Origin: Euglena gracilis
Taxonomy: Eukaryota
Assembly (NCBI GenBank): GCA_039621445.1
Contig: CP154954.1
Span: 15,209,805-15,273,804 of the forward strand
Direction: 5' to 3'
DNA length: 64,000 nt
Shown here in pieces: positions 1 to 24,015 of this stretch. How positions within the stretch are numbered: position 1 is the stretch's first letter; each line of letters opens with the position of its first letter. The translations under genes were made by a program, and so were the position numbers. Below the pieces are notes generated by a model, which ran no database searches, was not told where the DNA came from, and worked only from the letters and a program-made list of their open reading frames with translations.

Positions 1-1508
1 TGGGCGCAATTTCGCAAAAAAAACAATTCTTTTTGTGGGCGCACTTGCGCAAATAAAACGTACACCGATGATGTTAAAATGATATGTTTGTGGGCGCAAA
101 TGCGCCTATAAACAGTTTTTTTGGTGCGCGCATTTGTGCAAATGAGCGCACCAACAGGTTAATGTTTATTTGCGCAAATGCGCCCACCAACATGTATTTT
201 TACTTTCCATGTTAAAACACACCAATGAGGACCACGACCACACCAGGTTTTAAAACGTGATGGGGGTGTTGGTGTGCGCAATTGCGCAAATAAACACACT
301 TACGTTTGTGCGCGCATTTGCACAAATGCGCGCGCAAACATTTAATACACCGCTTCAAAATGATGTGTTTGTAGGAGCCTTAGAGCACACAAACAAAGTT
401 GCTTTTATTTGCGCAAATGCTCGCATTAACACACATCAGTTGTGCTATACCATCTCCTCCTTCGTGACAGCTGACGAACGCAATTCCTCACGTCAACCAT
501 TGATTTGCACCACGATTATGTGGAGACGAAATTTGTGGTGAGAGGAAGTGTGGAGTGTTCACTGGAACACGGCATAAGACTAGCCACAATTTGCCTGCCT
601 TACGTGTGTACATTTGTACTGTTGTTACCCGGCCTGAACGGCCTGTTGTTTTGGCGTCATCCGTTTCGCAGTTAAACGTCATGAATTGATGACGTGCAAA
701 CGACCTGTGACTGCTGGACACCTTTTCTGCAACAGGACTGTGTTACAAGAAGACAATATTTCGCACCTGAAATGCCAGGATGTGTCCGGCCGTAGTCCGT
801 TTTCTAGTTTTTCTCCATCATTTTTCCCTTGAAATATGTAAAAAAAACACCAATTTTTGTGCATAATTTGGGGATAGCCATGCACTGGCACCACGTTGTC
901 CCCCCAGTCTCACACCCCGGTTGCGGGGAATAAAGTGGCCGCTAAAGCTGGGTGTCGTTGCACTGGGAAGGTCGATGCCGGCCTGCTGGGTGCTGAAGCA
1001 TCAGCAGCTGATGTGGCTGCAACAGCGGAGCCGAGGCTGCAGGCCAGCGGCAGGGCCGTTGGGACCCAAAAATTGGTGCTGGTGGACGTGCACTGTTACT
1101 GGGTGGCTGTGAACCCACCTTCAAGAGATGCTATGGCTCCATATTTTGTGGGACCTGTCAACGGTCCAAAAACGGCACAATAACACCATATGCCGGAGGA
1201 GACGGTGTGGTCATTTGGGTTGAACCAATTCAAAAGCCACTAAGGGTGGCTGTAGGAGGGCCAAATGAAATTTTACTTCTCCATTGTTTGTTTTTTTGCG
1301 CATTTGCGCGCATCACGTTGTTTTGTGGGCGCAAATGCACAAAAAAACATAATAAATTATACAGTTCCTTCATGTGGTTTATTTGCACATTTGCGCCCAC
1401 AAACAACGTGATGCGCGCAAATGCGCAAATAAACCACATCTGCTCTCGGCGTTTGACGGTTGTGTTTCCGTCACACAGTTCTTCTTTGTATTTATTTGCG
1501 CAAATGCG
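1..1508. repeat. Host repeat rich in GCGCA(T/A)TTGCGCAAAT palindromic motifs (continues at 13358-13772 and 28363-~28868)
   Basis: Many TTTGCGCAAA/TGCGC motifs in AT-rich blocks, alternating with GC-rich exon-like blocks. The same motif resumes on the far side of each LTR element. Confidence 0.65.
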
Positions 1509-2358
1509 TGTCGGCCGCCGGCTTTTGCCGGCAGCCAAAAATTGCCCGAAAGCGCAAATTTCAAAGTCGCTGGTAACAGCCAATCAGTTAAAAAAAACCC
1601 GCGATAGAAATTGGAAGCGGGTCAAATTCGTTTGCATCTTCAAATTCTGTTTTTTTGCAGAGCTTGAGGGGTTTTCCCCATTATTTGGCAAAGAAGGGAT
1701 ACCATTGTATTGAATTTGGCATTTACATTCTTGGTGAGAATTCGAAGTGTGGATCACATTGGCGGTGGACTTTGAATTGCAATTCATATTGGCTATTGAA
1801 GTCAATTTGGAATTGAAATCAAGAAGGTGACCCTACAACACCGCCACCCTCACCGCCGCTCCTATTCCCTATACCCCTCTTCCTTGCCCCAGGTTTGCAC
1901 ATTTTCACACATTCACATTTCACAGTTCGTTTTCAATTCTTCACATTCAGCTACTTTCAGTTTTTCACTCTCAAAGATTTAAGTTTCAGTGGGTTGGGTT
2001 GTGGGTTGGTTTTGCCTTCAAGGTGTGCAAGAGAGTGTGAGAGTAAGAGAGAAAGAGAGAGGAGAACAGTGAGATTTCATTACAAATGGCAGATTTTTCG
2101 ATTTTCACCAAATTTTCGGAAAACATTAAAAAAACGATTCTACGCGCCGGCTGGGGTAGGGGGAAACACCTGGGTGAAAAAATGAGAGTTGGCCTGAGCC
2201 CACCCCAAGAAAAAGCGCAGGCCCCGCCCCGGAAACACCCACCCCCCGGCTGTCGGTGGTTTTCCACGACGGCGAGGACCCCCCCGGGCCCTCGGCCCAC
2301 CGGGACTCGCCGGTCGCGGGGGCGACCGGCGGCGCCCAGGGGGTGGGGCCGGCGAACA
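1509..2358 (+). repeat. 5' LTR of element A
   Basis: Starts TGTCGGCCGCCGGC and ends GGCCGGCGAACA. Colinear with 12502-13357 apart from scattered substitutions and small indels. Confidence 0.95.
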
Positions 2359-4770
2359 TGGTAAGCAGAGGCAGTTTCACTGACTCTGTCAGTGAATATT
2401 TTTCAGAGACGGTCAACACAGTCACAGAGGATTGTTCTGTTGGCTGCGTCAGCTGAATGGTACACGAGGGCAGTTTCACCAACGCAGTTGTCTGTGAATT
2501 TTCAGAAGAATCTGCAGAAATCTGCTGGTTTTCAGGTCAATCTGTCCGAGTGTCAGATTGTGCTGAAAATTTTCTGAGTTCTGTGGCAGAAATCTATTTT
2601 CAGAACGAAAAGGAAACTGAGTTTTCTGCAGCCCAGTTTTCAGAACCTGTGGCATCATTGCAAATCGTGACGGAATCTGTGGCAGAAAACAGTTTTCAGG
2701 CTGCAGAAACTTTATCGGCTTCAGGATTTTCAGAAACGACACAGGAATCAGAATCTCACTCTGATTCGTGGAGGGGGTCATTTACATGCATTAGGCCCAT
2801 CACGGTGGCAGGGCCAGAAAATTTACAAGCTGGTTCCACTGCAGCAGTGACGATGACGAATCAGACCCCCCAGCTTACGAAAGCGAATCAGAGGAAGAAA
2901 AACAGGCTGAAAACGCCATAATTCAGGAAATGGTTATTCAAATAATGAAAGCTGCTTGCATGTGGCCAGTAAATTTTTCAGGTTTTCAGCAAATTTCTGT
3001 GTCGTCACGAGACAGCAGCCCAGGGCCAGAACAAAAAATTTTGTGTTTAACAGCCCAGCCAGAACCATTGCTGTTAACACAGAGTTCAGAATCGCAGTCA
3101 GCACAGCCAGCTGCAGCCCAGCTGCAGGTTTTTCAGCCAGCCCAGCCGTTTTCGGCTGAGATATCTGTCTCAGCCCAGATGCCTGGGCAGGTTTTTCAAC
3201 CAGCTCAGCAGTTTTCGGCTGAGTCATCTGTCCCAGCAATCATGGGGCCAGCCCAGATGACTTCGCAGATTTTTCAGCCAGCCCAGCAGTTTTCGGCTGA
3301 GTCTTCTGTCCCAGCAATCATGGGGCCAGCCCAGATGACTTCACAGATTTTTCAGCCAGCCCAGCCGTTTTCGGCTGAGTCATCTGTCCCAGCAATCATG
3401 GGGCCAGCCCAGATGACTTCACAGGTTTTTCAGCCAGCGTTAACAGTGTCTTCAAACACAGGCCCAGCCCAGGTTTTTCGGCCAAATCAGCCAGATTTTA
3501 CACAGACCCAGCCAAAAAAATTGCAGCCAAACACCAGTTTTTCTGCAGAAACTGGGTCCGAAAACCCTGAAAATCAGCATGATGTGGAAATGGAATCGGG
3601 CTATGGCCAATCTGATGATGATTGGAACAACTGGGGTGAAGAAATCAGTTGCAAAATTGAATGTTTACATGGCAGACTTTTGGTGCAGGAAGGAAAACAC
3701 CCTGAAAAAACGGCTGAAAATCTGGTGGGGGAGGCAGAAAACAGGCTAAATCAGGCGTTGGCCATGTCACAGGGGCAGACATTGAATCTGGTCAATGAGG
3801 CATTGGGCATGCATGATCAGCAAATGGCGGATCACATTGCCATGGTGAAACGTGAAATTCAGGCTGAACTGAGTGCAACCATAAACGACTTGCTTTTGCA
3901 GTTTCAGCAAAATGGTTAAACGGTGCAAAACTTGGCCCAATGCCAAAGGTATTTGTTGAGTGTGGAAATGGAACGGCAGTTTGCTGAGAAAGTGAAGAAA
4001 GTGGAGGATGGAGTAAACACGTTTTTTGAGGCCCAGGTTGAGGGGTTGAAAAAAAAAATGAGAGGGATTTTTCTCAGAAGCTGTCGATTTTGGAAAAATC
4101 TGTGGGGGAGATGCACGTGGTGGTGCAACAAGTGGGGGAGAAGGAAAAACAGCAGGAAATTGCTGTTAATCAGGTCAAATCTGCAGTCGGTGAGCTAAGC
4201 TCTGGTCTGGTGGGACGCTTTGGGATCATTTTTCAGCAATGCAAAGGTTTGGGGGAGACTGAGTGTGCCAAATTTCAGGTGCAGGCTGAGAAATTGAAGG
4301 AATTTTCACAGTCCCTGGAGCGCTAGAGCAAAGCTCTGAATGATCGTTTGGGGAGGTTGGAGAATTTTCTGGGTCGGAAAGATTTTCCCATTGAGAAAGT
4401 CTGTGACCTGATCAACAAGAGTGAGGAAACCATTCGGTTGGAGGTGCAAAGGGAGTTGGGGCTGCAAACGAGAAAGAATTTGGAGGTAATTATCAGTGAA
4501 ATGTTGCAGGAAAGGTTGAGGCTGAGTGAAAGTGAGGGGCGGTTTGAAAAAGTTCGAGCCGAAATGGAAAATTCGATGAAACAGCAGGTTGGAGTTTTAC
4601 TGCAACAGCAGTCCAGTGAACTTTTTAAAGAACAACAGGCGCGGAAAAAACTACAGCAAAAGCTGGATTCGTTTCAGGCTGAGTTTTTGGTGATGAAAAA
4701 TCAGCAAGCTGAATCTGCCAAATCTGCGGCAGTGGATCTGACAAAGGAAACAAGAGAAAAATCAGCTTGA
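2358..4770 (+). pseudogene. Disrupted ORF0 / Gag N-terminal extension of element A (Ser/Glu-rich, 26-aa PAQ repeats, coiled coil)
   Basis: ORF fragments 2457-2921, 2930-3919, 3923-4326 and 4348-4770. About three copies of a ~78-bp repeat (FQPAQQFSAESSVPAIMGPAQMTSQ), followed by E/Q/K-rich helical sequence. Same layout as the corresponding ORF of element B. Confidence 0.7.
2359..2371 (+). promoter_or_regulatory. Primer-binding site (initiator tRNA-Met-like) of element A
   Basis: TGGTAAGCAGAGG abuts the 5' LTR and resembles TGGTAGCAGAGG (complement of a eukaryotic tRNAiMet 3' end) with one extra base. Confidence 0.7.
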
Positions 4771-4898
4771 AATTCAGAAATCGAGGAGTTTGATCTTTTT
4801 GGTTACAACGATTTACCTGTGATCGAGAAAAATACGGTTGAAATTGAAGGCTATGAATACGCTGAACCAGGGTCACATGCGACACATGTCAGGCAGGT

Positions 4899-5653
4899 TT
4901 GCGCACGACCTGTGGGGGCAGTGCCTGCAGGTGCAGGGCTGGTTTCATCAAATGCAGTGGCAACGCATCAATTGATGAAACTCTGGTAGCTCCAAATTTT
5001 TCTGGACAGCCAAAACACTGGTCGTCCTTTGTGCGTGATTGGGAGCAATATTTCATGACATTGGTTATTTTACAAAATGGAAATGTGTCTGATCCACTCA
5101 AACTTCGGCTTTTTTCAATGACGCTGGATGACACAAATCAAAAGGAATTGCAATTCCGGATGGAATTGAACGGGAAAACACCTTTCGAGGATGAATTTGA
5201 TAGGATTGACGGGAAATATGCCGGAACTCAGTCCGACTGTGCCAGAAAAAAATGGTGTGATGTCAACCTCGTGAACCAAGGGAAAATTACCGTAACGGAA
5301 TGGCGAGATTTTGTCATAAATTTCAAAATGGCCTGGAAACAGGTGAAAAGCGCCACTGACGATGAGGCAGAAAGACTGGTCAAAGGAAAACTGCCAAATT
5401 TCATTTTGCATTGGGTCGCCGATGAGGAGGAAAGGAAATCAACGTGTGGACCGAAAGTCAAAATGTACCCTGCAGTGCCTGCAACTGAGGAAAACACTAT
5501 TTGTGCCGTGGAACGTGTCACTGTGGAAAAGCCCTGCAAGGTTTCGAAAGTTTCACCGCTGGAGTTTGAAGTCTTTTTGCCCAATACTACGATTTGCGAC
5601 AAACTGAAAGAGGTCAGTGGGAAACCAATCACAGGCCCAACACGGATTAAAAT
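4899..5653 (+). pseudogene. gag: Gag capsid-like region of element A (C-terminus continues on the minus strand in the inverted segment)
   Basis: APNFSGQPKHWSSFVRDW...RKKWCDVNL aligns by eye with element B RPRFSGLAKDFAKFEGEW...RQSWESVRL. Confidence 0.8.
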
Positions 5654-6957
5654 ACTCCACCAGCTGTGAGCATCCTCCATTTTTTCTGTGACAAGTCATT
5701 CCATATCAACTTTTCACGGTGACTCCTCCAGAGAATCAAATTCGGGCAGGTCTGGCCATCACAAAGGTAGCTTGCAGATCGCTCCCCAAGGGGGGGTATC
5801 CCCAATCTGAAAAATGTAAATAATCAACATCGACAAAAGTCAGATTTTGAACACAGGGTCCGAAGCAACCCATGACGGGGAAATCCACCACAACCTTGGT
5901 GCAAAATCCAGTGCCAGTGGTTTGATCACAGTCATTGCCCCCCCCCCAATTTCTGACTCAATTTGGCAACCTATATTCTGTACAGGGCACCCCCCAATTT
6001 TCAGGGAAATCAGTGGGGGTACGTCCAATCTCCACTCCAAAATATTTCACAGTGGGTGGGGTTAAATCTGGGGTTTATGTCCACTGAGATCACCTTAAAT
6101 GCTCTCTTAGGCAATCCCCAACCGAGCTCAAAGGCAAAAAAGGCTAATGCTAAGAAGGCTGTGCACAACCCTCTTAGGAGGTCTGGTGGACCGTTGGGAC
6201 GAGTCCCAGATTTGCACGTCACGCAGGCACACACCCGACACACTGGACACACCTTGTACAGAGATCTCCTGGGTGGCAGATTTTTCATCGTGTTTTCACT
6301 CGCACAAGATTTTCTTGCCACCTGGGATTTGCGTATGTCTTTGTGTGCTGGGTATGCAAGCCTGGGGCGGCTGCCAACGGTCCACCGCGGCTATCCTAGC
6401 AACGGTTTCCTTTCCCCCTTCCTTTGCCTTTGCCTTTTCCACCATCCTGGCCCTTTCCCCTAGACCAGTCATTTCCATTGCCAATAATTGTTTCCTTTGC
6501 CCTTTCCTTTGCCTTTGCCACCAGCCTGTACAAAATTCTTGAGTGCCACCACTGATTTGCAAAATTGGCATTGGCATTGTAATTCCACCCCAATCGTATT
6601 TTCACCATATTTGCCAAATTGAGATTGCTGGGGGGGTGGCAATGACTGTGATCGAACCACTGGCACTGGATTTTGCACTGGGGGGTTCGCGTTTGCATTG
6701 GTCACTGGAGCTTCCACCTGTGAAGAATCTGATTTTTCAACAGGTTTCGCCACCGTTTCACCCCCCTTTGCTGTCCGTGAGGGGAGGGCGTCCTGGACCC
6801 CTTGGCCCGATCTGCCTTTGCAGACCTGGCCCTTCGGTTTCCAAACCCATTTGGCTCTCTGGAAGTGTGTAGCATATCTTGATTATCCCTTGATGACAAT
6901 TTTCGCTCAACAGAACGGAAAATTTCTTCAGCTCCCATTTTTGGCTGTTCCTCCACA
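5654..6957 (-). pseudogene. Inverted segment of element A: Gag C-terminus plus degenerate C5-cytosine methyltransferase
   Basis: The minus strand from 6956 reads VEEQPKMGAEEIFRSVERKLSS (compare B: HEYELSSDDIFEFVAARLRT), then a GKGKG tract. It continues with FKVISVDINPRFNPTH, VPCTEY, FAPRLWWI, TFVDVDYLHFSDWGY, CDGQTCPNLI and QLVEY, colinear with the element B C5-MTase. Flanked by the 10-bp inverted repeat GGATTAAAAT (5644-5653) / ATTTTAATCC (6958-6967). Confidence 0.75.
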
Positions 6958-6979
6958 ATTTTAATCCTTTTATCTGTGA

Positions 6980-7380
6980 TATCGTAGGGAGGATTATGCT
7001 GTTAGGAAAGTTTGTATGGAGGAAATTGAGAAGGAATTTCGGGTGAAGGCGGAACGGGATTGTTTTGCAACCAACCAAAATACCAGGTGTGAAAAGTTTT
7101 ATGGAGAGGATGATGATGCCATGAAAAAGGATTGGGGGACAGAGGAAACGTTGTGGATGAACCCCCCCTGGACTTTGTGGCCTGAGGTGGCTGAAAAATT
7201 GCGGAAATCCAATTGTCGGGCAATTTGCATTTGCCCAGACTGGAATAGGAAGTGGGTGAAAAATCTGGTGGCTATGGCTGTCAAAAAGATTTATTTTCCC
7301 AAGGTGACAAAGTTGTTTGAGGCTGATGGGAGGATTTTGAGGGGTGCCCGTTGGGGTGTGTGGGCCTTGTTGATTGATAG
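6980..7380 (+). CDS. N6-adenine-type (amino) DNA methyltransferase domain of element A pol
   Basis: EDYAV...RDCFA...DDAMKKDW...LWMNPPW (NPPW at 7160-7171)...AICICPDW...RWGVWALL. Colinear with the NPPF domain of element B. Confidence 0.85.
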
Positions 7381-7499
7381 AAGGCAACCCTCCCAGGGGG
7401 GGGAGAAGCCCCAGGGAAGAAAAATTTGTGCGGCTGAAAAAAAGAATGTTGAGGGGGACGAAAACTCGGGGAGGAGCAAAGAAACTCGGGGAGGACAGA

Positions 7500-7900
7500 C
7501 AACTTCTGTTAAAAACCCAGATTAAGTTGGCAAATGGGGAGGAAAAAACGTCCAAAATCTTGTTTGACACGGGGACTGAGGCAAACCTCATTCGACAAGG
7601 GTTGATAGGGGAACACCTAATGTATCCTGTTAAGGACCCGTTAAGGTTTGAAACTGCCAATGGGCAAACTTTGGCGGGGGGGAGCAGATGTGCTAAGGTA
7701 AAAATGATCCTTCAACAAAATTGGAATGAGGAAAGGGAAATTGAGTGTGTGTAGAATACGAGGTTGAATTTTACGAGGCAAATATCAACGTTGACGCAAT
7801 TATTTCTTATCCATGGTTGGCAGAAGCAAAACTGGTAATTTTTCCACACCACAAGGCGTTGGTGAAAGACAGCCCCGACCTGTTTTTTTTGCGGGGTGTT
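7500..7900 (+). pseudogene. Aspartic protease of element A (in-frame stop at ~7752)
   Basis: KILFDTGTEANLIRQGLI (DTG at 7566), LRFETANGQTLAGG and DAIISYPWL. Confidence 0.85.
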
Positions 7901-7987
7901 GACAGACGGAGGGGTCCGCAAAAATTCAGGGATGACATAAATTTTTCGGTGGGCAATGTGACTGTGGCGGACGGGTCTTAGTTTGGG

Positions 7988-9660
7988 TTGCAAAAACTTG
8001 GTCTTTGTTTGCCATTGGAGGGGTTGGACCAGGAAGTGCAATTTTTGAGCGATGAGGACCTAAGGGAGGTTGCGACAAATTTGGAGGGAAGTGACCCCCC
8101 AGTGCAAGTTATCAACCGAATGATAATTGCAAGGGATGGGGAGGACAAAAAAGAGGAGGAACAGGTAGTCAAGTTGAGGGAACAAGTTTTGGAAGATTAC
8201 CGGGGGACGGTATTTCGGTCATCGCCATTTCCAGACCCCCCCGAAAAAGGGCAATATGGTTATGCATACATACCGTTGAAGGAGGGGGCAAAGCCAACCA
8301 GACAGAAGCCTTTTTTCATGCACGGTGAGCGGAAAGAGGCACTTGAAAAAATCACCCAAGACTGGCTCGACAAAAAATACATTGAGCCAGCTACAGCCAA
8401 AAATTCCGAATGGCTGTCCCAGACTTTTCCAGTTCCAAAAAAATCCAACGATTTTCCTTGGAGGGGGGTGGTGGACCTCAGGGGGCCAAACAGCCAAACA
8501 AGGCGATGCAACTACCCCCTACCCAAAATTGAAGACATTTTGGTCAAACATGGTGCAAACCAAATGTTTTCGATTACTGATTTGAAGCAAGCTTTTCACC
8601 AACACCCTTACACCCAGAAAGTCGACCCATAACGTGTTGTTTTACCCCAAATGCATTTTTCAGTGGAGGGTGAACGTAATGGGTTTGCCCCCCAACAATT
8701 TCAGTAAATGATCGATGACCGTTTGACACCAGTAAGGGATATCGCCACAGGGTACATATACGATATAGTGGTGGGGACAACGGTCGGGGAAGGGGAGGAT
8801 CTAGTGGGGGCACACGAAAAAGTTTTGAGGAGGGTGTTGGAGGTGCTCAAAACAGAACTTTTGGTGGCTGATGAATTCAAAGCCAAACTTTTTGTGGAGG
8901 AGGTTGAATTTTGTGGACAAATTTTAGGAAACGGGACTAGGAGGCCAGCACCGGGTAAGCTACGAGCGATCGAAAAGTGGGAGGTTCCAAAAAACAATTA
9001 CGGCTTTGAGAGCCTTTTTGGGATTCACAAATTATTACAATGCATACATTCACATGTATGCGGAAGTAGCAGCCCGGTTGCCAAGACAAATTGAAAGTCC
9101 CCAGGGAGGTGGGAAAGAAAGGAAGTCGAAAACCTGTGGAGAGATTTAAAAGCTTTTTAGGAGCTGAAAAAAAGGTTGTGTTCGGGCCTAATGTTGCAAC
9201 GGGTAGACCCAGATAAACCCTTTGTGCTAAGGGTTGATGCCAGTGGGTACGCCGTGGGGGCAACGTTAGAGCAAATAAAGGAGGGGGGAGGAAGACCCAC
9301 AGCCCAGGATGTGATTGAGAAAAAAACTGTGCCAGTGGCTTTTATGCCTCGAAAATTGACCGAGGGGCAAAGAAAATGGATCCCCAGGGAGTTGGAGACG
9401 TATGCCATAATTTTGGCACTACAAAAATGGGAGAGTTGGATTGGATTGCAACCCGTTGTGGTTTTAACCGACCATCCAAAGTTTGGAGTCTTGGACAAGG
9501 GAAGTCCTAGACACCCCCAGTGGTCCGGTTAGGAGGAGGGCGAGATGGCACCAAATTTTCTCCAAGTATGATTTGACGGTTGGATATATCCCGGGTAAAG
9601 AAAACACCATAGCCGATATCCTTAGTTGGTGGGCATACCCAGCTTCACAAGCCCTAAGGG
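7988..9660 (+). pseudogene. Reverse transcriptase and RNase H of element A (frameshifted; YIDD mutated to YIYD)
   Basis: FPVPKK...WRGVVDLRGPN, YPLPKIEDIL, DLKQAFHQ, GYIYDIVV, VEFCGQIL. RNase H motifs VDASGYAVGATLEQ, ELETYAII, TDH and IADILS. Confidence 0.92.
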
Positions 9661-10079
9661 ACATAAGTAAGCACGGGTCAGCCGAAGACAAGGATGAAAT
9701 GGAAAATTTTATACGGGAGGAAAAAGAAGAGGAAAAACAGTGTTTGGAGATAAGAATCAAAAACCAGCCCAATTTACGTAATGCCTGGATTCGGGGGGTG
9801 ACAACCCGTAGCGGCAAAAACGTAACACCTGAGGAGGAAAACGGAGAGTGCACAAGGAGGGGAACCGAGGGTGGGGTAGACCCAGGAGGAAAAGACACCC
9901 CTGTGGACACCCACTCACAAGGGCCCAGGAAAGAAAAGAAACGAGTTCATTTTTGGGATGAGAAAGTGGAGGGGGAGACGACCCCTGTCCCGGAGACGGC
10001 TGAAAGTTCGAGGGGGGACACTCGTATGGAAGTGGGGGACGCCCTGCCAAGTACGACCCCTAAGGATATTAAGCCCGTA

Positions 10080-11558
10080 TGGGAGCGTGATTGGGTGGAA
10101 GCATATTTCCAATGCCCCACATGGAAAGAAAAATGGGTAGCTACCAAAGGCGATTCAATTTGGCCAAAGGGCTTCAAAGTGCTAAATGGCCAAATGTTTT
10201 GTGAAGAAACGTTGTGTGTGCCCGAAAGTTTTCAACACTTGGTGATTCAAGAAAATCACGAATTTTTGGGGCACGTTGGCCCTGAAAAAGTTTGGAAACA
10301 CATGGCAATCCGTTTTGTTTGGGCTGATGAAAAGGCTACAAAACAACTCAACCAAAGTTGCAGCAAAAATTATTACACATGCCAAGCGAGTGTGAGGGGG
10401 GAGAGTTTAAAAGGACCGATCGAGTCCACACCCATACCCCCTGCACTAATGACAAGTGTTGCCATCGATTTGTTTCGAATGCCAAGGGTTTTACACGATG
10501 GGGGGGAGTATGACACCCTAGCCTTGTGTGTGGATAGGCATTCGGGATGGATTGTGGAGGTTGCATGCAAGGACAAGGGACTAACCGGTGCCAAGTTGGC
10601 TAAGGAAATGGTGAAAAATCAGTGGAGGCCTTTTGGGGTTCCCTCGGTCATCTCAAGTGACCAAGGGAGCCATTTCACAAGCACTTGGTGGAAAAACATG
10701 TGTGCACTTTTGGGGATTAGGCAAGCATATTCCCAAGCATACCACCACCAAGCAAACGGGAGGGTTGAGAGAGCCGGATAACAGGTAATGGAGGTGTTGA
10801 GAAAATTCTATGTGGAGGAAAAAATTAATTGGGTTGAAGCTTTACCCCAAGTTTTGGACCGAATTCATGACGTAAATGGGGAAAGCGGATTGAGCCCATT
10901 TGAAATTTTGCATGGAAGGGAACGACCATTGGCAGGGGTACCCTACCAACCACCCAAAGAACGTGAGGATTCGGTGGAGTTTTTCCGTAGGATGCAAGAC
11001 ATTGATGGGAGGGTGGCTAGGATACTCAACAAAAAGCATGAGGAGGAGGTGGCAAGGATAAATAAGGGGAGGAAAGAAATGGAACCCCTAAAGGTGGGGA
11101 CGACGGTTTGGTATAGGAGACCCGAAGGGTCGGGTGAGAAGCTTGACTCTAGGTGGGTGGGACCTGGGGTCGTGAAGGGTAGAGAAGGGGAACGAAGTTA
11201 TGTAATCGAAATGAAACCTGGGGTGGAGACAAAAGCTCATAGGAATTTTTTGAAGGAGTATCGTGAACCCCAAGTGGAAGGTAAGGGGGTGCCTCTTTTT
11301 TACTATAAACGGACCGAAAAAGAAGAAGAGGCATTACCTGATGAGTGGGAGGTGAAAAAAATTCTAAGGCATCGGAAAGGAAAAGATGGAAAGTGGGAGT
11401 TTTTGACCAAGTGGGTCGGATATGAGGATGGGGAGGAAACCTGGGAACCGGCTGGAAATTTCATTCACAGATTCAGTGGGGAGTTTGTAAGATATTGCCG
11501 TGAGAAAAAAGTGGAAATGGACATCATGTCCGAACTTAAAATTGACAGTTGGCCATAG
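10080..11558 (+). pseudogene. Integrase with C-terminal chromodomain of element A (in-frame TAA at 10779-10781)
   Basis: NHEFLGHVG...YYTCQ (degenerate HHCC), AIDLF, SDQGSHF, NGRVER and WVGPG. Chromodomain EWEVKKILRHR...WEFLTKWVGYEDGEETWEPAGNF. Confidence 0.93.
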
Positions 11559-11989
11559 GCTCTAAGGTGAGCCATAAGGCCCTGTCCAAGGCTCTACGGT
11601 GAGCCTAATGGGAAGGCAAAGTGCTGTTTTCAAAATTCAAAAACCCGATTTGCACGCCCGTGTGGGTGTGAGTGCACGCACACACGCATGAGCGTGTAAA
11701 TGAGCGAATGTACAAATGCAAGAATTTGCCAAAAAGAATGGAGAAAGGTAGAAAAAGTCCCCACAAGGGGGCCGGGGCACCGCAGTATATGCACTGCCCG
11801 TTTGCTATATTTGCTGTCCGCTGTCCTTCTTCCCTTCCCTCCCTCTACCTTACCCCGCGTTGCCGTCACGTCTCCCTCGCATACACACATAGCGGTGTTG
11901 TTAGGGTTTGGAGAAGGATTCTTTTTTCAGATTGATTCCTTGAGATGATGGATTACATTATGGTTGGGAGTCCTTGGTCACATTATGAG

Positions 11990-12200
11990 CCCCCCTTCGG
12001 TTTGACAAAAATCCCCCCGGCCCGAGGAGGGGGGGGGTTGATTTTTTGACCAAAATCCCCCCGGCCCGAGGAGGGGGGGGGGGGGCGCTTGATTTTTTTG
12101 ACAAAAACCCCCGGCCCGAGGAGGGGGGGGGGGCTTGACAAATTTGAACCATAAATCCCCCCGACCCGAGGGGGGGGGGCGCCAACCGAATTTTTACCCA
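11990..12200 (+). repeat. ~45-bp GC-rich tandem repeat in the 3' region of element A
   Basis: About four copies of GAC(A/C)AAAATCCCCCCGGCCCGAGGAGGGGGGGG..TTGATTTTTT. Confidence 0.8.
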
Positions 12201-12490
12201 AAATTCCCCGACCCGTTGGAAAGGGGGAGGCAGATCTTGGTGAAGACCCTCATACCACCCGTGAGAAGCGGGGGGGGGGCAGCCAAATATTCATTGGTTG
12301 GTGAACCGAGTCTTTCCCAAAGGTTTGAAGGCACTTGAAAGCCATAGTCCCTGAATTTTGTTTCCCGTTTGGTTGGTTCAAGGGAGCATGTGTGGGACAT
12401 AGGCTTTGGGTGAAGGAGTGTCGATTGGAGGTGTTCCCCCGTCTTTGTTGAGGAAAAGGGGGGGGGGTTTTGGTGTCCGACTAAGGTCGC

Positions 12491-12501
12491 AAGGGAGGGG
12501 G
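12491..12501 (+). promoter_or_regulatory. Polypurine tract of element A
   Basis: AAGGGAGGGGG immediately 5' of the 3' LTR. Confidence 0.85.
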
Positions 12502-13357
12502 TGTTGGCCGCCGGCTTTCGCCGGCAGCCAAAAATTGCCAGAAAGCGCAAATTTCAAATTCGCGGGTAACAGCCAATCAGTTAAAAAAAACCCGTGATAG
12601 AAATTGGAAGCGGGTCAAATTAGTTTGCATCTTCAAAGTCTGTTTTTTTGCAGAACTTGAGGGGCTTTCCCCATTATTTGGCAAATAAGGGATACCATTG
12701 CATTGAATTTGGCATTTACATTCTTGGTGAGAATTCGAAGTGTGGATCACATTGTTGGTGGACTTTGAATTGCAATTCATATTGGTTATTGAAGTCAATT
12801 TGGAATTGAAATAAAGAAGGAGACCCTACAATACCGCCACCCTCACCGCCGCTCCTATTCCCTATACCCCTCTTCCTTGCCCCAGGTTTGCACATTTTCA
12901 CACATTCACATTTCACAGTACGTTTTCAATTCTTCACATTCAGCTACTTTCAGTTTTTCACTCTCAAAGTTTCAAGTTTCAGTGGGTTGGGTTGTGGGTT
13001 GGTTTTACCTTCAAGGTGTGCAAGAGAGAGTCTGAGAGTGAGAGAGAAAGAGAGAGGAGAAAAGTGAGATTTCATTACAAATGGCAGATTTTTCGATTTT
13101 CACCAAATTTTCGGAAAAAATTAAAAAAACGATCCTACGCGCCGGCTGGGGTAGGGGGAACCACCTGGGTGAAAAAATGGGAGTTGGCCTGAGCCCACCA
13201 ACCCCCAGAAAAAGCGCAGGCCCCGCCCCGGAAACACCCACCCCCCGGCTGTCGGTGGTTTTCCGCGACGGCGAGGACCCCCCCGGGCCCTCGGCCCACC
13301 GGGACTCGCCGGTCGCGGGGGCGACCGGCGGCGCACAGGGGGTGGGGCCGGCGAACA
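12502..13357 (+). repeat. 3' LTR of element A
   Basis: Starts TGTTGGCCGCCGGC immediately after a purine tract and ends GGCCGGCGAACA, followed by the TSD TGCG. Confidence 0.95.
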
Positions 13358-13772
13358 TGCGGAAATAAACAGAGAACATTTTTGTTTGCGCATTTGCGCA
13401 AATGCGCGCATAAAACATTTTTTTTGTGTGCGCATTTGCGCCCATAAGCTTGCGCGTTGACAAACAGTGTGACAAACCCACCAACTGGACGGCCCTCTTG
13501 TCTGCGCACTCACGACTCCTTTGTCACGCGGTTTATCAACAGCGTCAGTTCATGGGTACCAAAGCCCAATCCCTGAAGGACACGTTTATGTCCACACACA
13601 TAAACATGTTGGTGCGCGCATTTGCGCAAATAAACACAAACATGTCCTTCCAGTGTTGGGCTTCTTCCGCTGGGTTCTTTGCCACACAATTGTTTGTTCG
13701 TATCCCGGGTATAAGCCAGGTGGGAGACACCCGTCCCCCTCATTCCCTGTGGGCCCTATTTCTTCCCCCTTG

Positions 13773-15093
13773 TGTTGGGGGGTCCGGGAAACCCACATGC
13801 GCCCGGAGTGCGGCCCCATTGATGGGGAAAGATACTCGCCGGCGACGCTTTGCGTACTGTGGTATGTTTTTGTTGTTGTTCTTCCCCTGGACAGCTTGAC
13901 CTGTTGGGTTGTATGCCAAGGGAAGGTTTGCCTGGCGTGAATGTGGGTTGGATCATCAGGAGTTGTTCCCGTCGAGCGCCTGGGAAGGGCGTCCGGGGGG
14001 GGGGGGCATGGGTGGAGTCCATGAAGGCCTGGGAGGAGGCCCTTGTTGCCCCCAAGCCCAAATGGCGTGAAGTGTGTGGGATTATCCCTTGGGTGAGGAT
14101 GAGGGAGGCAGATGTCATGTTGTTGCCCATAGTATATGTGGATGGATTCATTGAGTTCGTAGGGGATGGAAGAGAGCGTGGGGGGTGGTGGGGGGAAGGT
14201 TGGGAAGGGAGAAGGCCCTAGGGGATGCGAAGCGCGTCTGGATGGGCTCCTTTCCTAACCAGTGGGGTATCCTTAATTTTGACTTCCAATTCCAAGGTCC
14301 AAATGTAGGAAGGTGAAGGAATGCATTTGGAGAGGGGGGAGAGTGGCAGAAGTGCATTGGGCATCTCCCCATGGATTGGAAGGCGGTTGGAGAAAAAAAG
14401 GATTTTTTCCCCCCATTGTTGGCAAGTGGTGTTCCTTTGATTTCTTTCCCACAGTGGGTTTCCCATTTACCATTGTTTTTGTTTATCTATTTGGCTGAGT
14501 TTGATTCACCATTGGCTGAGTTTGATTCATTATTGGCTGCGAGTTTGATTCATTGTCATTGGTCAAAGTCATTGTCATTGGTCAAGACAAGACAATCGAC
14601 AAAGCGGAAGTTGAAGTTTGCCTAAGGGGAAGACCGAACACCACCTCGAACCTTGAACCTTTCGTCCGTCCCCTCCCCCAAGGTATTGTGCCTAATTTTT
14701 TACAAAGGAAAAAAGGGGATATAGAATTTGGAAAGCGCAAGGATTTTCAGTCAATTTTACTGAAAATTTTACTGAAAATGTCCTCTTTTTCAGATGTGGA
14801 GAGGCAAGGGTTGGAGCCGGGGAAGGGGGGGGTATGGGGCCCCGCCCCCTTACGTTGCACAAGCAAGGGAGTGGCAAGCGGCCCAAGACCGAGAAAGGGC
14901 GAGGGTGCAAAGGATAGTGACCCAGGTATGTTTGGGGATATGCAAGGGGGGGTATGCATGAAGCCCGAAGGGAATCGTGTTTCTGTTGGATCCCCTGAAA
15001 CTGCGGAGGGAAATAAAGATCCTACGCCGCCGGAGGCCCATCCCGGGGTCCCCCTCGCGGGGGCGGACACGGGGTGGGCGTCCCGCGTTAACA
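13773..15093 (+). repeat. 5' LTR of element B
   Basis: Starts TGTTGGGGGGTCCGGGAAAC and ends CCCGCGTTAACA. Confidence 0.95.
14490..14586. promoter_or_regulatory. Tandem ATTGG (reverse CCAAT) enhancer-like repeats in LTR B (also at ~27760-27855)
   Basis: TTGGCTG(C)GAGTTTGATTCA x3 followed by TTGTCATTGGTCAA x2. Confidence 0.5.
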
Positions 15094-18032: not shown

Positions 18033-18543
18033 CCCCAGCATTGGCCGAAATCAGATCCGAGGTTCAGCAGCTGCAGGGGTGGGTGCACGCACAGCCAGCA
18101 GCAGATGGGCAGAGAGAAATTCTGCAAAATCTGCTTGCCGTGGAGAGTGGGCAGATCCGGGAGCGAGTGGAAGGGTGGTTACGGGATGTGCATGCCCAAG
18201 TCGATGCGCATCTGCAAAGCCGCCTTCCCTCAGTCCCTGTCGCAGGAGCTGGGAGGTGCGGAAACGTGGGCGGAATGATGACAATTGGGGAGACGAGGAC
18301 CCCCGTCACCGCCCAGCCCAACCTGCAGGCTCAAGCGAGCGGTGTGCCTGCGATTCGTCAGCCGCCCCCAGTGATGCAGCCAGTGGGGTTTGGGGGGGGG
18401 GGAGCCCCCACTCGGGGCCCAAAGGGGATTTGCCCAGCCAAGTCCAATGGGGAGGCTCGTTGAATCGATCTCCCCAGTGAGGGAGGGAACCGACTCCCCT
18501 GAGGGATGGGGAGGGGGATCATGGGGAGGCAGCTTGCCAGGCT

Positions 18544-20193
18544 GTGGACCTGCGGACGCAGGGCTATGTGGATGAAATGGCCCAGAGATTCCGACAGGAA
18601 AGGGAGGTTGCTTTGGGGCAGGCAGCGTCTGTGGGGATTCTGCGCAGGGATCTGCCAACCGTGAATTCTGTCCCCCCAGTGGGCCAGGAGTTTCCGCGAG
18701 GGGGTAGGAGGTTGTTGCCCCCTCCCTCTGTGATTGGCAGCCATGCTTCGGACGGAGAGAGTGAGATCGCCCGACCCAAACTCATTCTGCCAGGTGCTGG
18801 GGGTCGAGGATTGTGTGGTTGGCCTGGTGGTGCACCCCCTGGGAATTACGCTGAAAATTCCAGTTTTGTGGGGTCCCATGCAAATCAATGCAGCCAGCAT
18901 GATGACCCTGGGCGTACGGCACGGGTGGGTGTGACGGGGGCAGCCCCTGCGAGCCAATTCCCGTTTTTTCAGACCCATCCCATCAATTCAGACGTGTGGC
19001 GGCGGATGCCGCGTCCGCGGTTTTCAGGGTTGGCCAAAGATTTTGCCAAGTTTGAGGGGGAATGGGAGGAGCTCGAGCGGGTTTGTTCCGAGACTTCTCC
19101 ACTTCCCCCATCAGATTTCGTGTTGTTGCAGGAGTTCAAAAGTTGCCTCGATGAGGCAACTCAGGCAAAGTTGAGATTGCGCATGAAGCAGGATGCGGGT
19201 CTCACGTTGGCGGGTTTCCGCCAAGAGCTCCGGAGGGAATTTGGAATTGATTCCTTGAAGCAGCACAGGCAGAGTTGGGAGAGCGTGAGGTTGAGCCGTA
19301 CAGGACCCAATGGGGGGGCGACCTTACAAGATTTGCGCAGGTACGGGGAGGAATTCAAATTATCAAGGGAGCAAGTTCCGGAACGTAGCGCCGGTGAGGA
19401 GCGAAAAATGTTGTTCACACAAATGTCGCCTTCGCTCCAGGAAGATCTCATGCGGGAGACCGCAAGACGGCGGGTCAGCCGTCCGTGGATCAGGGTCACG
19501 TTTCCAACGAGGGTGAACGGGCCAGCTGTTTTGGCAGAAATTCAAGCCCACCTTGGGGAATCACTGCCACCGGTGCACGAATGTTCGTCAGGATACGTGA
19601 TCGAGACTCCCACTGAGGCTTGGCGGGAAAAGCTCTTGGCGTGGCACGGGGCAACCATGGCTGGGGCCAGGGTGAACTTCACTCGACACGAGTATGAATT
19701 GTCGAGTGATGACATTTTTGAATTTGTGGCTGCCCGTCTTCGGACAGACGAGGAGCTGGAAATCACCCGCCGGGCATTTGGTTTGGAGACCCATCCGGGG
19801 GACGCAAGGGCGAACCCCAAACCGTTGGAGACCAAAGCAGTCGTGGTGCAGGCACCTTCGGAACGGAGACCCGAGAGCAAATCCCCCACCAAAAGGAAGG
19901 GCAAGGGATTTGGAAAGAAATCCCCATCCCCGAGGAGATCAGACCAAGGGGGGGATTCTGGACCTGGTGGGTGCCCCACATGTCGGAAAGGGAATTGGAG
20001 GAGTGACCATGACCCAAAAACTTGCTACTGGAATCGGCAATCAGAGTGTTTCACGTGCAGAACGGCCGGACGGGAGTTTGTACACGACTATCGCCAGTGC
20101 GAGTGGGTCAGGAAAGCCAGAGAGGAAAGCCAGAAGAGGTCTGCCAAGGAGCCAGCCCCAAAGGGGGGGGTCCCCCCCCAAAGGCCTGAGTAG
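18544..20193 (+). CDS. gag: Gag (capsid-like domain plus two CCHC zinc knuckles) of element B
   Basis: PRFSG...FEGEW capsid-like motif. Knuckles CPTCRKGNWRSDHDPKTC and CFTCRTAGREFVHDYRQC. Ends at TAG 20191-20193. Confidence 0.85.
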   Translation: MDLRTQGYVDEMAQRFRQEREVALGQAASVGILRRDLPTVNSVPPVGQEFPRGGRRLLPPPSVIGSHASDGESEIARPKLILPGAGGRGLCGWPGGAPPGNYAENSSFVGSHANQCSQHDDPGRTARVGVTGAAPASQFPFFQTHPINSDVWRRMPRPRFSGLAKDFAKFEGEWEELERVCSETSPLPPSDFVLLQEFKSCLDEATQAKLRLRMKQDAGLTLAGFRQELRREFGIDSLKQHRQSWESVRLSRTGPNGGATLQDLRRYGEEFKLSREQVPERSAGEERKMLFTQMSPSLQEDLMRETARRRVSRPWIRVTFPTRVNGPAVLAEIQAHLGESLPPVHECSSGYVIETPTEAWREKLLAWHGATMAGARVNFTRHEYELSSDDIFEFVAARLRTDEELEITRRAFGLETHPGDARANPKPLETKAVVVQAPSERRPESKSPTKRKGKGFGKKSPSPRRSDQGGDSGPGGCPTCRKGNWRSDHDPKTCYWNRQSECFTCRTAGREFVHDYRQCEWVRKAREESQKRSAKEPAPKGGVPPQRPE

Positions 20194-20256
20194 GGGGGTC
20201 ACAGCCCCGAGAGGGCAGGCTGTGTAAACCCGAGTCCCTCAGAGAGTGCGAGCGAG

Positions 20257-20790
20257 GTGCAGCTTGGGGGACGGAGTTTTTTAGCCGTGACTCCCAGTGG
20301 GGCGGGGGGGGGGGGCACACTGTTGGGGGCTTCCAGTTTGTCCGGCACGCGAGTCATCCGGGCCCCCGGGATGAAGGACGAACATTTGCACCTACGGGCG
20401 GTGGGACGCGTAGCGGAAGGGGTTCAGCCGTCGGTCATGGTGTTGATCGACACCGGTGCGCAAGTGAGCCTGGTTCGAAAAGGGTTGATTCCTGAGGAGC
20501 ATTTGACGGCGGCGGCGGAAACACCTCTTCGGTTGATGGCCGCAAACCAAAAGCCGATGCAAGGCGGATCCCGGGAGGTGAGCATGGAGCTCACCTTCGA
20601 GGGTTTTTGTGTGGACACGGGACGGGCTGTGAAGGTGATTGCCCCAACCAGGTTGTGTGAGGCGGACATCGCCGAGGATGTGATTGTGTCATACACCTGG
20701 TTGGGAGAACGAAATTTTCAGGTGGACCCAAAACGACATGGGTTGCGGGGTCAAGTGGGGGGAATGCTGCTTTGGATACCTGGGAGTCCC
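20257..20790 (+). CDS. Aspartic protease of element B
   Basis: VLIDTGAQVSLVRKGLI (DTG at 20449), LRLMAANQKPMQGG and DVIVSYTWL. In frame with gag. Confidence 0.9.
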
Positions 20791-20865
20791 ACCGTGGAGA
20801 TAAGGGCAACGGGTGGGGGGTGTCCAGAGCCCCGCGTCTGCGTTGAGAAAGCAGATCTGGGGCCC

Positions 20866-21480: not shown

Positions 21481-21730
21481 TTTGGGGAGTTCCACACCTG
21501 TGTTGGGTGCATGCACGGACGTGCGAAGTGCAGATTCCCATGGGGAAGAAAACGGCTCATTTGGGCCTTGTGTTCGGGGGGGAGGTCCTCCGGACATCGT
21601 GCATGTCCCACAGCCCATGCTCGGGAGTCGTGATGTGTCAACGTCAAGCCGTCTCGGAGGGGGGGGCATCTCACAGGGGGAGCGTGTGGGAGTGCCCACC
21701 CATCGAGGATCGCCCGGTGGCAGATGGCGC

Positions 21731-23430: not shown

Positions 23431-23449
23431 CGAGCGGGCACTCCTCAGA

Positions 23450-23940: not shown

Positions 23941-24015
23941 ACCCAGCCACATCCGCACGGGAGGATGTGAGTTTTCATGGAAGCGAAACGGCCCGGGAGG
24001 AGGTGAAAAAAATGA

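What the first reader, a model, noticed from the sequence alone, without database searches (positions are those of the whole stretch)
5654..7600. A second, divergent family has the same C5-MT + N6-MT cassette, but on the other side of the protease
Seen: re-inverting 5654-6957 gives element A the order gag-C5MT-N6MT(NPPW)-PR-RT-RH-IN-chromo, whereas B is gag-PR-C5MT-N6MT-RT. The LTRs are unrelated and base composition differs, yet the motif strings are colinear: SVDINPR/SVDSDPK, PCTEY/PCTEY, FVDVDY.HFSDWGY/FVDCDQ.QFSDFGY, CDGQTCPNL/CDQRTCPNL and LVEY/LVEY. Inference: the dual-MTase module is an old, selected unit of a retrotransposon clade, and it was either shuffled within pol or captured twice.
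Basis: partly seen in the sequence, partly recalled or inferred. Interest (0 to 1): 0.85.

Follow-up and report, generated by a model that had tools for sequence, protein, structure and literature searches.

The report
Two methylase-carrying retrotransposons, domains reordered
Two neighbouring, distantly related LTR retrotransposons each carry an adenine and a cytosine DNA methyltransferase, placed before the protease in one and after it in the other; elements of this kind were described in a 2026 preprint, so only the variable domain order is new.

Summary
Element A (1508-13359) and element B (13772-28362) are complete Ty3/gypsy-type LTR retrotransposons. Their LTRs are unrelated and their GC content differs.

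- **Adenine methylase:** both carry a Dam-like N6-MTase, with NPPW in A and NPPF in B. It lies upstream of the protease (PR) in A and downstream in B.
- **Cytosine methylase in A:** it exists only as a frameshifted relic on the minus strand (about 6150 to 5652). Its colinear profile score is 32.3 bits, against a maximum of 7.2 in 300 shuffles.
- **Inversion:** contigs of three DNA runs of the same organism join 5635 to 6978 and 5636 to 6977 on opposite strands. Other copies therefore carry 5636-6977 the other way round, and the inversion is not the family's usual form. With the segment turned back, the relic runs in frame into the N6-MTase.
- **Domain orders:** A reads X-C5MT-N6MT-PR-RT-RH-IN-chromo. 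B reads X-PR-C5MT-N6MT-RT-RH-IN.

The two methylases are not a fixed cassette. Database relatives show PR-C5-N6, PR-N6-C5, C5-PR-N6, N6-PR-C5 and N6-C5-PR. Dual-methylase chromodomain LTR elements ("EpiLTRs") are already in a 2026 preprint, so this is a new variant of a known kind.

The parts
1508..13359 (+). Element A, a complete LTR retrotransposon
   Evidence: LTRs 1508-2360 and 12501-13359 are 95.6% identical. The ends are TG..CA, the target-site duplication is 4-5 bp, and a TGGTAAGCAGAGG primer-binding-like site follows the 5' LTR.
4866..5635 (+). A: upstream ORF 'X' (no Pfam family), ending at the left inversion breakpoint
   Evidence: Matches B 18481-20190 at E 1.4e-6. No Pfam hit at E 0.01 or better.
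5636..6977 (-). A: 1342-bp block, inverted in this copy
   Evidence: 'Opposite strands' joints 5635|6978 and 5636|6977 occur in contigs of 3 of 3 DNA runs laid, plus one RNA read each. GC skew reverses over about 5550-6950. A 5-nt inverted microhomology, CACAG / CTGTG, sits at the two breakpoints.
5652..6150 (-). A: C5 cytosine methyltransferase relic
   Evidence: Colinear profile hits; chain score 32.3 bits against a maximum of 7.2 in 300 shuffles. The three-frame trace shows at least 5 frame changes, stops, an altered motif I and motif VI, PC of motif IV kept, and two short deletions.
5899..5948 (.). Left arm of a 50-nt inverted repeat, inside the relic
   Evidence: 96% complementary to 6629-6678.
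6629..6678 (.). Right arm of the 50-nt inverted repeat
   Evidence: It encodes the same peptide stretch as the left arm, on the other strand.
6980..7522 (+). A: Dam-like N6-adenine methyltransferase, NPPW at 7160-7171
   Evidence: Pfam PF05869 E 1.7e-11. Matches B's N6MT at E 3.7e-21. 877 database relatives at E 1e-3 or better.
7374..7978 (+). A: aspartic protease, FDTGTEA at 7563-7583. It lies in another frame than the N6MT, with a further frame change at about 7745.
   Evidence: Matches B's PR at E 6.5e-11 and 7.8e-4. Both pieces hit my own PR profile.
7982..11558 (+). A: RT, RNase H, integrase and chromodomain
   Evidence: Colinear with B's RT, RH and IN. Pfam rve 1.3e-10, Integrase_H2C2 1.5e-5, Chromo 2.8e-9.
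13772..28362 (+). Element B, a complete LTR retrotransposon
   Evidence: LTRs 13772-15093 and 27030-28362 are 98.9% identical. Target-site duplication CTTG; TGGTCGCAGAGG follows the 5' LTR.
20371..20733 (+). B: aspartic protease, IDTGAQ at 20446-20463
   Evidence: My own PR profile 7.2e-52. Pfam Asp_protease_2 is weak at 0.0092.
20869..21490 (+). B: C5 cytosine methyltransferase, split by one frameshift near 21122-21174. Motifs DLFSGTGS, PPCTEYS and WWVETP are present.
   Evidence: Profile hits 1e-57 and 2e-36. 59-70% identity to P0002-P0006. The modelled fold of relative P0007 matches DNMT3A, DIM2, DNMT1 and M.HaeIII.
21725..22153 (+). B: Dam-like N6-adenine methyltransferase, NPPF at 21914-21925
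   Evidence: My own N6 profile 1.3e-51. Aligns to A's N6MT. No Pfam hit at E 0.01 or better.
22424..26214 (+). B: RT, RNase H, integrase and a chromodomain-like tail
   Evidence: Pfam RVT_1 1.2e-23, RT_RNaseH 5e-26, rve 1.4e-8. The tail aligns to A's chromodomain region at 34% identity, E 2e-43, but has no Pfam Chromo hit.

Best explanation
A and B are two old, separately evolving lineages of one large group of Ty3/gypsy-type (chromovirus-like) LTR retrotransposons. Their polyproteins carry a Dam-like N6-adenine methyltransferase and a compact C5 cytosine methyltransferase, the kind of element a 2026 preprint calls DAM-LTR / EpiLTR.

The canonical order is X-C5MT-N6MT-PR-RT-RH-IN-chromodomain in family A and X-PR-C5MT-N6MT-RT-RH-IN in family B.

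The window's A copy is a dead insertion. A 1342-bp block (5636-6977) holding the C5MT was inverted, and the C5MT has decayed. B is a younger insertion but is also broken.

The stretch between the gag-like ORFs and RT tolerates rearrangement, and PR, C5MT and N6MT behave as separate modules. Across relatives they occur in many orders, so the difference between A and B most likely arose by reshuffling inside the polyprotein of elements that already had both methylases.

Function is inferred and not shown here. After release or as fusions, the enzymes would mark the element's own DNA with 6mA and 5mC to engage the host's epigenetic system.
For: **Shown: domain order.**
- Domain identities and order in A and B.
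- Other copies carry 5636-6977 in the other orientation at both junctions. The two main joints have 5+5 contigs in X1, 5+5 in X2 and 1+1 in X10. Two minor variants, 5636|6968 and 5636|6974, also occur. One RNA read supports each main joint.
- With the block turned back, the relic's last frame (ending in LVEY) is in phase with the N6MT ORF that starts at 6980 (my reading).
- Overlapping contigs of other copies tile 7057-7968 from N6MT into PR, so the N6-PR order is a family trait (table 8).

**Shown: relatives.** Of 161 database proteins annotated with my own profiles:
- 122 hold N6 only.
- 16 are PR-N6, 3 N6-PR, 5 C5-N6 and 4 N6-C5.
- 3 are PR-C5-N6 and 1 is PR-C5.
- 1 each is C5-PR-N6, PR-N6-C5, N6-C5-PR, N6-PR-C5 and N6-N6.
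- 2 hold C5 only.

**Shown: trees and co-divergence.**
- A's N6MT sits in a 13-row clade of a 159-row tree. The only multi-domain rows in it are C5-N6 (P0081, P0087, P0103) and N6-PR (P0012).
- A's C5 relic groups with P0081 and P0087 (82/88), and B groups with the PR-C5-N6 proteins (90/89).
- C5 and N6 pairwise identities co-vary: Mantel r 0.68, with 0 of 2000 permutations as high, over 16 rows and 107 pairs.

**Shown: fold.** The C5 domain of relative P0007 was modelled (pLDDT 74.8). Its top Foldseek matches are DNMT3A, DIM2, DNMT1, MET1 and M.HaeIII at E about 1e-8 to 1e-7.

**From the literature.**
- EpiLTRs with DAM, DNMT and chromodomain (bioRxiv 10.64898/2026.05.21.726589, Results sections read).
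- Two coexisting SymbioDIRS-Dnmt3 structures with different domain orders (PMC5890265, section 6 read).
Against: - The 13-row N6 clade around A has weak support (SH-aLRT 56).
- A's C5 row fills only 35% of the columns and has a long branch.
- The Mantel signal is driven largely by the tight B-like cluster, and related rows inflate it.
- The orders C5-PR-N6 and N6-C5-PR each rest on a single database ORF (P0001, P0109). Each has one member sequence or is a lone representative, and could be a rearranged dead copy.
- No full-length A-family copy with an intact C5MT was seen. A search with the relic ORF found nothing.
- Depth over the relic is 4-8 fold below its flanks, so many A copies may lack it or have diverged there.
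- The trees are unrooted, so gain versus loss and the number of captures are not resolved.
- N6MT and PR are in different frames in this copy, and I cannot tell a programmed frameshift from a mutation.
- Methylase activity is untested. The preprint reports no 6mA gain when eukaryotic DAMs were expressed in E. coli.
Confidence: 0.75

Rival explanations
1. Two captures. The A lineage and the B lineage each acquired a C5MT, or the C5MT-N6MT pair, independently, from another element or a virus-like donor. The insertions landed at different sites of the polyprotein.
For: - C5MT-bearing rows are scattered among rows without a detectable C5MT across the N6 tree.
- Close relatives of A's N6MT often have a zinc-knuckle-like upstream region and no C5MT (P0023, P0038, P0066).
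- P0016 has 138 residues after its N6MT with no C5MT.
- The preprint infers repeated transfer of DAM and a shared DNMT module between unrelated LTR backbones.
- A stand-alone homologue exists (P0011, 241 aa, 60 member sequences).
Against: - A's nearest relatives are the same proteins for both domains, and so are B's.
- All element-borne C5MTs form one family of the same compact 205-residue form.
- Most 'C5-less' rows are short fragments that cannot show absence.
Confidence: 0.2
2. The minus-strand C5MT block is not part of element A. It would be a fragment of another element nested in reverse, or the inversion would be an assembly error in the record behind the window.
For: - The block is much more decayed than the rest of A.
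- Depth over it is low.
- No contig shown bridges 5635/5636 or 6977/6978 in the window's own configuration.
- Other structural variants exist, for example a 5406-to-6677 joint in 2 of the 3 DNA runs.
Against: - Both ends of the block are joined to A's own flanks in the opposite orientation in 3 of 3 DNA runs, at the same two points to within one base.
- The turned-back junction is in frame with the N6MT.
- P0081, P0087 and P0103 show the same C5-N6 adjacency in A's clade.
- An assembly error would change only the status of the inversion, not the family's domain order.
Confidence: 0.05

Closest known systems
EpiLTRs / DAM-LTR retrotransposons (Fernandez-Moreno et al., bioRxiv 10.64898/2026.05.21.726589; Results and passages read)
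   Same: These are LTR retrotransposons of Ty3/gypsy or chromovirus type. They encode a Dam-like adenine methyltransferase (PF05869) with the Asn-Pro-Pro pocket, a cytosine DNMT and a chromodomain. They are reported in Euglena gracilis and Cymbomonas tetramitiformis.
   Different: - The main text places the Cymbomonas DNMT at the 3' end of pol and gives no position for the Euglena one. A search of the text found 0 occurrences of 'protease', 'domain order' or 'shuffl'.
- Here both methylases lie between the gag-like ORFs and RT, on opposite sides of PR in two families of one genome.
- I could not see the figures or supplements, which may show these architectures.
- Host identity (coded 'organism A') and the DNMT's clade ('sister to DNMT4') were not tested.
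SymbioDIRS-Dnmt3 and SymbioLINE-Dnmt of Symbiodinium (de Mendoza et al. 2018, PMC5890265; section 6 read)
   Same: Retrotransposons carry a C5 DNMT in their coding region. Two coexisting structures differ in domain order within Pol.
   Different: Those are DIRS and LINE backbones with Dnmt3-like or orphan DNMTs and no Dam domain. Here the backbone is an LTR element with integrase, and the DNMT is compact (about 205 aa) and paired with a Dam-like domain.
DIRS1-type elements with a Dam-like methyltransferase domain
   Same: The same Dam-like domain family. According to the preprint it is the source of the LTR-borne DAMs.
   Different: DIRS elements use a tyrosine recombinase and split or inverted repeats. 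A and B have DDE integrase (Pfam rve), direct LTRs and target-site duplications.

Membership tests
Ty3/gypsy (chromovirus-like) LTR retrotransposon | Direct LTRs with TG..CA ends and a short target-site duplication | tested here: met
   A LTRs are 95.6% identical and B LTRs 98.9%. Target-site duplications of 4-5 bp.
Ty3/gypsy (chromovirus-like) LTR retrotransposon | Order PR-RT-RNase H-integrase | tested here: met
   Pfam RVT_1, RT_RNaseH and rve in B; rve and Integrase_H2C2 in A. All are colinear between A and B.
Ty3/gypsy (chromovirus-like) LTR retrotransposon | Chromodomain at the integrase C-terminus | tested here: inconclusive
   A has Pfam Chromo at 2.8e-9. B has no Pfam hit, but its tail aligns to A's at 34% identity, E 2e-43, with some aromatic positions changed.
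Dam-like N6-adenine DNA methyltransferase (Pfam PF05869) | Profile match above the curated cut-off | tested here: met
   A scores 44.5 bits against 28.1. B has no hit at E 0.01 or better but is homologous to A at E 3.7e-21.
Dam-like N6-adenine DNA methyltransferase (Pfam PF05869) | Catalytic (D/N)PP(Y/F/W) motif | tested here: met
   NPPW at 7160-7171 and NPPF at 21914-21925.
Dam-like N6-adenine DNA methyltransferase (Pfam PF05869) | Adenine methylation activity | not testable with these tools
   The preprint's E. coli assays of eukaryotic DAMs gave no 6mA gain.
C5 cytosine DNA methyltransferase (Pfam PF00145 / DNMT fold) | Profile match | tested here: inconclusive
   - B's two ORF pieces have no hit at E 0.01 or better.
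- Relatives P0118, P0081 and P0024 score 29.1, 27.1 and 26.4 bits, above the 22-bit cut-off.
- P0007 and P0005 score 20.7 and 21.0 bits, just under it.
- Only profile positions 3-112 of 324 are matched.
C5 cytosine DNA methyltransferase (Pfam PF00145 / DNMT fold) | DNMT fold | tested here: met
   The AF2 model of relative P0007 (pLDDT 74.8, pTM 0.70) has DNMT3A, DIM2, DNMT3B, DNMT1, MET1 and M.HaeIII as top Foldseek matches, at probability 1.00 and E 1.9e-8 to 5e-7. The PDB sequence search found nothing significant.
C5 cytosine DNA methyltransferase (Pfam PF00145 / DNMT fold) | Motif I (FxGxG), motif IV (PC) and motif VI (ENV-like); motif names are recalled | tested here: met
   - B has DLFSGTGS, PPCTEYS and WWVETP.
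- A's relic keeps only the PC of motif IV. Motifs I and VI are altered and the frame is broken, so A's copy is not a working member.
EpiLTR (preprint definition: LTR element with DAM, DNMT and chromodomain) | All three domains in one LTR element | tested here: met
   A has the DNMT as a relic, plus Dam and Chromo. B has the DNMT, the Dam-like domain and a chromodomain-like tail.
EpiLTR (preprint definition: LTR element with DAM, DNMT and chromodomain) | DNMT in the clade sister to DNMT4; host Euglena or Cymbomonas | not tested
   I built no reference DNMT tree. The host is given only as coded 'organism A'.

The most novel reading that the evidence does not exclude
The stretch between gag and RT in this widespread group of LTR retrotransposons may be a free-recombining 'accessory bay'. 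In it PR, a C5 cytosine methylase and a Dam-like adenine methylase occur in all six possible linear orders. Five orders are seen in single database ORFs and in B; the sixth, C5-N6-PR, is family A. That would imply three things. Dual 5mC/6mA capacity is ancestral to the group and not a rare late assembly. Each module works independently of its neighbours. Order is reshuffled repeatedly while both enzymes are kept.
Probability: 0.35. Interest if true: 0.6.

Novelty: new variant of a known kind. Interest (0 to 1): 0.45.

Why it matters
Retrotransposons that bring their own DNA methylases are a recent discovery, and why an element would carry both a 6mA and a 5mC enzyme is an open question. If the two enzymes are kept through deep divergence while their position around the protease changes freely, both activities would be under long-term selection as independent modules. 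That would also give a natural series of permutations for testing how the polyprotein is processed and which module needs which neighbour. The practical lesson is that a domain order read from a single copy can mislead. The order became clear here only after a private inversion was recognised from other copies.

Tried and rejected
- **Own genome:** none is held, so intact A copies could not be fetched.
- **Protein search with the relic ORF 6013-6390(-):** 4 candidates, none at E 0.01 or better. This is no evidence that intact A-type C5MTs are absent.
- **ESM Atlas with P0004:** no usable hit.
- **PDB sequence search with P0007:** only a chance-level aldolase match, E 0.7.
- **Rfam on the whole window:** 0 matches.
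- **Pfam on ten other long ORFs at 30-63 kb:** 0 families, so no host gene identified the organism.
- **Earlier findings of this scan:** nothing.
- **Weak profile hits at 31950-32486(-):** they are not colinear with the C5MT profile and I took them as chance.
- **An NPPY word on the minus strand near 6990:** it straddles the breakpoint, scores E 4.0, and was rejected as chance.
- **Pfam on the gag-like ORFs and ORF X of A and B:** nothing at or above any cut-off.
Full report
**What is in the window**

Self-comparison finds two adjacent LTR retrotransposons.
- Element A spans 1508-13359. Its LTRs are 1508-2360 and 12501-13359, 95.6% identical.
- Element B spans 13772-28362. Its LTRs are 13772-15093 and 27030-28362, 98.9% identical.
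- Both have TG..CA ends and 4-5 bp target-site duplications. A similar TGGT..CAGAGG site follows the 5' LTR in each.
- The LTRs of A and B share no blastn match.
- A has 45-50% GC and B has 55-63%.
- Pfam finds RT, RNase H and integrase in B, and integrase, zinc-binding domain and chromodomain in A.
- B's tail aligns to A's chromodomain region (34% identity, E 2e-43) but does not reach Pfam Chromo.

**The adenine methylase and the protease**

- A 6980-7522(+) is a Dam-like domain: PF05869, E 1.7e-11, 44.5 bits against a cut-off of 28.1. Its NPPW motif is at 7160-7171.
- It aligns to B 21725-22153, which has NPPF at 21914-21925, with E 3.7e-21 and 31% identity.
- A's protease (7374-7978, FDTGTEA at 7563-7583) aligns to B's (20371-20733) with E 6.5e-11.
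- So the N6MT is upstream of PR in A and downstream of it in B. RT, RNase H, integrase and the tail are colinear, at 34-52% identity.

**The cytosine methylase**

In B it lies between PR and the N6MT (20869-21490) and is split by one frameshift. It carries DLFSGTGS, PPCTEYS and WWVETP.

In A nothing of it is on the plus strand.
- B's two pieces rank first (1e-57 and 2e-36).
- The best remaining hits are A's minus-strand fragments 6013-6390 (E 0.0019, profile positions 20-43) and 5739-5957 (E 0.0061, positions 107-135).
- Fragment 5650-5823 follows two ranks lower (E 0.81, positions 152-173). All three are in profile order.
- Their colinear chain scores 32.3 bits. None of 300 dinucleotide shuffles of the segment reached it, and the maximum was 7.2.

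A three-frame trace shows a relic.
- There are at least five frame changes, plus stops.
- Motif I is altered.
- The PC of motif IV is kept.
- The ENV-like motif reads WWISP.
- There are two short deletions, one over the motif VIII region and one before LVEY.

The family is a true DNMT. A model of the relative P0007 (pLDDT 74.8) has DNMT3A, DIM2, DNMT3B, DNMT1, MET1 and M.HaeIII as its best Foldseek matches, at E 1.9e-8 to 5e-7. Pfam PF00145 matches only its first third, and scores hover around the cut-off.

**The inversion**

GC skew changes sign between about 5550 and 6950. I laid contigs of three DNA runs and raw reads of one RNA run of the same (coded) organism on 4800-8000 at 85% likeness.
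- The result shows 'opposite strands' joints 5635|6978 and 5636|6977 in all three DNA runs. X1 has 5 and 5 contigs, X2 has 5 and 5, and X10 has 1 and 1. Two minor variants end at 6968 and 6974.
- One RNA read supports each main joint.
- These are the two junctions expected if other copies carry 5636-6977 in the other orientation.
- A 5-nt inverted microhomology, CACAG / CTGTG, sits at the breakpoints.

With the block turned back, three further points follow.
- By my own reading, the relic's last frame (ending in LVEY and five more codons) is in phase with the N6MT ORF that starts at 6980.
- Three RNA reads that run into 6978 carry loose letters. Their first part resembles the relic's end, followed by twelve extra letters, which is a multiple of three (table 7).
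- Overlapping contigs of other copies tile 7057-7968, so N6MT followed by PR is a family trait (table 8).

Four points count against a tidy picture.
- Depth over the relic (5656-6190) is 4-8 fold lower than over the flanks, and one bin (5870-5976) is nearly empty.
- Other structural variants exist, for example a 5406-to-6677 joint in 2 of the 3 DNA runs.
- A 50-nt inverted repeat (5899-5948 / 6629-6678, 96% complementary) lies inside the block.
- No contig shown bridges the window's own junctions, so I cannot exclude that the inversion is an assembly artefact.

None of these changes the family's order. Length differences against other copies occur inside the relic (table 4). I did not build any repaired or consensus form.

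**Relatives**

A search of 1.84 billion representatives with A's N6MT found 877 proteins at E 1e-3 or better: 247 at 1e-10 and 17 at 1e-30. The best hits are only 51-57% identical. I annotated the 161 database proteins in hand with my own C5, PR and N6 profiles.

| Architecture | Proteins |
|---|---|
| N6 only | 122 |
| PR-N6 | 16 |
| C5-N6 | 5 |
| N6-C5 | 4 |
| N6-PR | 3 |
| PR-C5-N6 | 3 |
| C5 only | 2 |
| PR-C5 | 1 |
| C5-PR-N6 (P0001) | 1 |
| PR-N6-C5 (P0017) | 1 |
| N6-C5-PR (P0109) | 1 |
| N6-PR-C5 (P0118) | 1 |
| N6-N6 | 1 |

Pfam supports these calls for ten of the proteins, although its PR hits are weak. So the two methylases are not a fixed cassette. PR can sit between them, and their order can be reversed. 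With family A, all six orders of the three modules are represented. Two of them rest on one ORF each.

**Old pair or two captures?**

- In the N6 tree (143 rows) A and B lie in different halves.
  - B sits in a starred 23-row clade with the PR-C5-N6 proteins.
  - The PR-N6-C5 and N6-C5 rows share a starred 18-row clade.
  - The N6-PR-C5 row and the N6-PR rows P0122 and P0158 share a starred 8-row clade.
- With shorter N6 pieces added (159 rows), A falls in a 13-row clade. Its only multi-domain members are C5-N6 (P0081, P0087, P0103) and N6-PR (P0012). Support is weak (SH-aLRT 56).
- In the C5 tree (19 rows) A's relic groups with P0081 and P0087 (82/88), and B groups with the PR-C5-N6 set (90/89). 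A's row is short and its branch is long.
- Pairwise identities of the two domains co-vary: Mantel r 0.68, with 0 of 2000 permutations as high, over 16 rows and 107 pairs. This is partly driven by the tight B-like cluster.

Together this favours elements that already had both enzymes and then reshuffled them. The trees are unrooted and most database rows are fragments, so independent capture keeps a real chance.

**Compared with what is known**

- A 2026 preprint (10.64898/2026.05.21.726589; Results and search passages read) describes DAM-LTRs. Within them it describes 'EpiLTRs' with DAM, DNMT and chromodomain in Euglena gracilis and Cymbomonas tetramitiformis.
- Its main text does not mention the protease or domain order. 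Searches for 'protease', 'domain order' and 'shuffl' gave 0 occurrences. Its figures and supplements were not visible to me.
- De Mendoza et al. 2018 (PMC5890265, section 6 read) already noted two coexisting DIRS-Dnmt3 structures with different domain orders.
- A literature search for LTR retrotransposons with both methylase types and a chromodomain listed the preprint first. Judged by title and abstract start alone, none of the other 11 papers listed (of 33 that matched) describes such elements.
- The finding is therefore a new variant of a known kind. It is real and carefully read by the first stage, and of moderate interest.

**Function**

Function is inferred only. The N6MT motifs are intact in both elements, B's C5MT motifs are intact but its frame is broken, and A's C5MT is dead. 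Both copies in the window are non-functional insertions.

Noticed in passing
database protein P0001 (aa 595-658), not in the window: A C5MT-PR-N6MT polyprotein fragment also carries a histone stem-loop-binding-protein RNA-binding domain between PR and the Dam domain (Pfam SLBP_RNA_bind, E 2.3e-19). P0109 gives a weak hit (0.039). Pfam scans of A's and B's ORFs did not report it.
   Followed up: partly
database proteins P0015, P0019, P0023, P0030, P0031, P0036, P0038, P0049, P0066: Many close relatives of A's N6MT end a few residues after the domain, with a basic RRRWRRK-like tail. In those lineages the methylase seems to be the C-terminus of an upstream, gag-side ORF. In the window's A copy the N6MT and PR frames overlap by about 150 nt in different frames.
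   Followed up: partly
window 36596-41353: A pentanucleotide satellite of about 3.7 kb (unit GATAT, 37197-40883; GC about 19%, GC skew near +1). It is flanked by (GAGAG)n at 36599-37198 and (GAGGA)n at 40882-41353.
   Followed up: no
window 42953-43120 and 51078-51767: An (AC)n run and a (GT)n run in inverted orientation about 8 kb apart.
   Followed up: no
window 3171-3514 (A) and 15991-16937 (B): The first, gag-like ORFs of both elements hold tandem repeats of related CCAGCCCAGCCCATCATG-type units (78 nt in A; 45, 90 and 102 nt in B). Neither ORF matches a Pfam family.
   Followed up: no
window 6405-6511: RNA reads pile up here (17.7 and 28 reads deep, against about 1 elsewhere), and more than 100 reads run on into unlike sequence at 6406 and 6440. 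This is a Lys/Gly-rich low-complexity stretch that probably attracts reads from other transcripts.
   Followed up: no
window 35008-35490: A 19-nt tandem array (25 copies, unit CCATCATGACCCATGATGC) that is also self-complementary.
   Followed up: no
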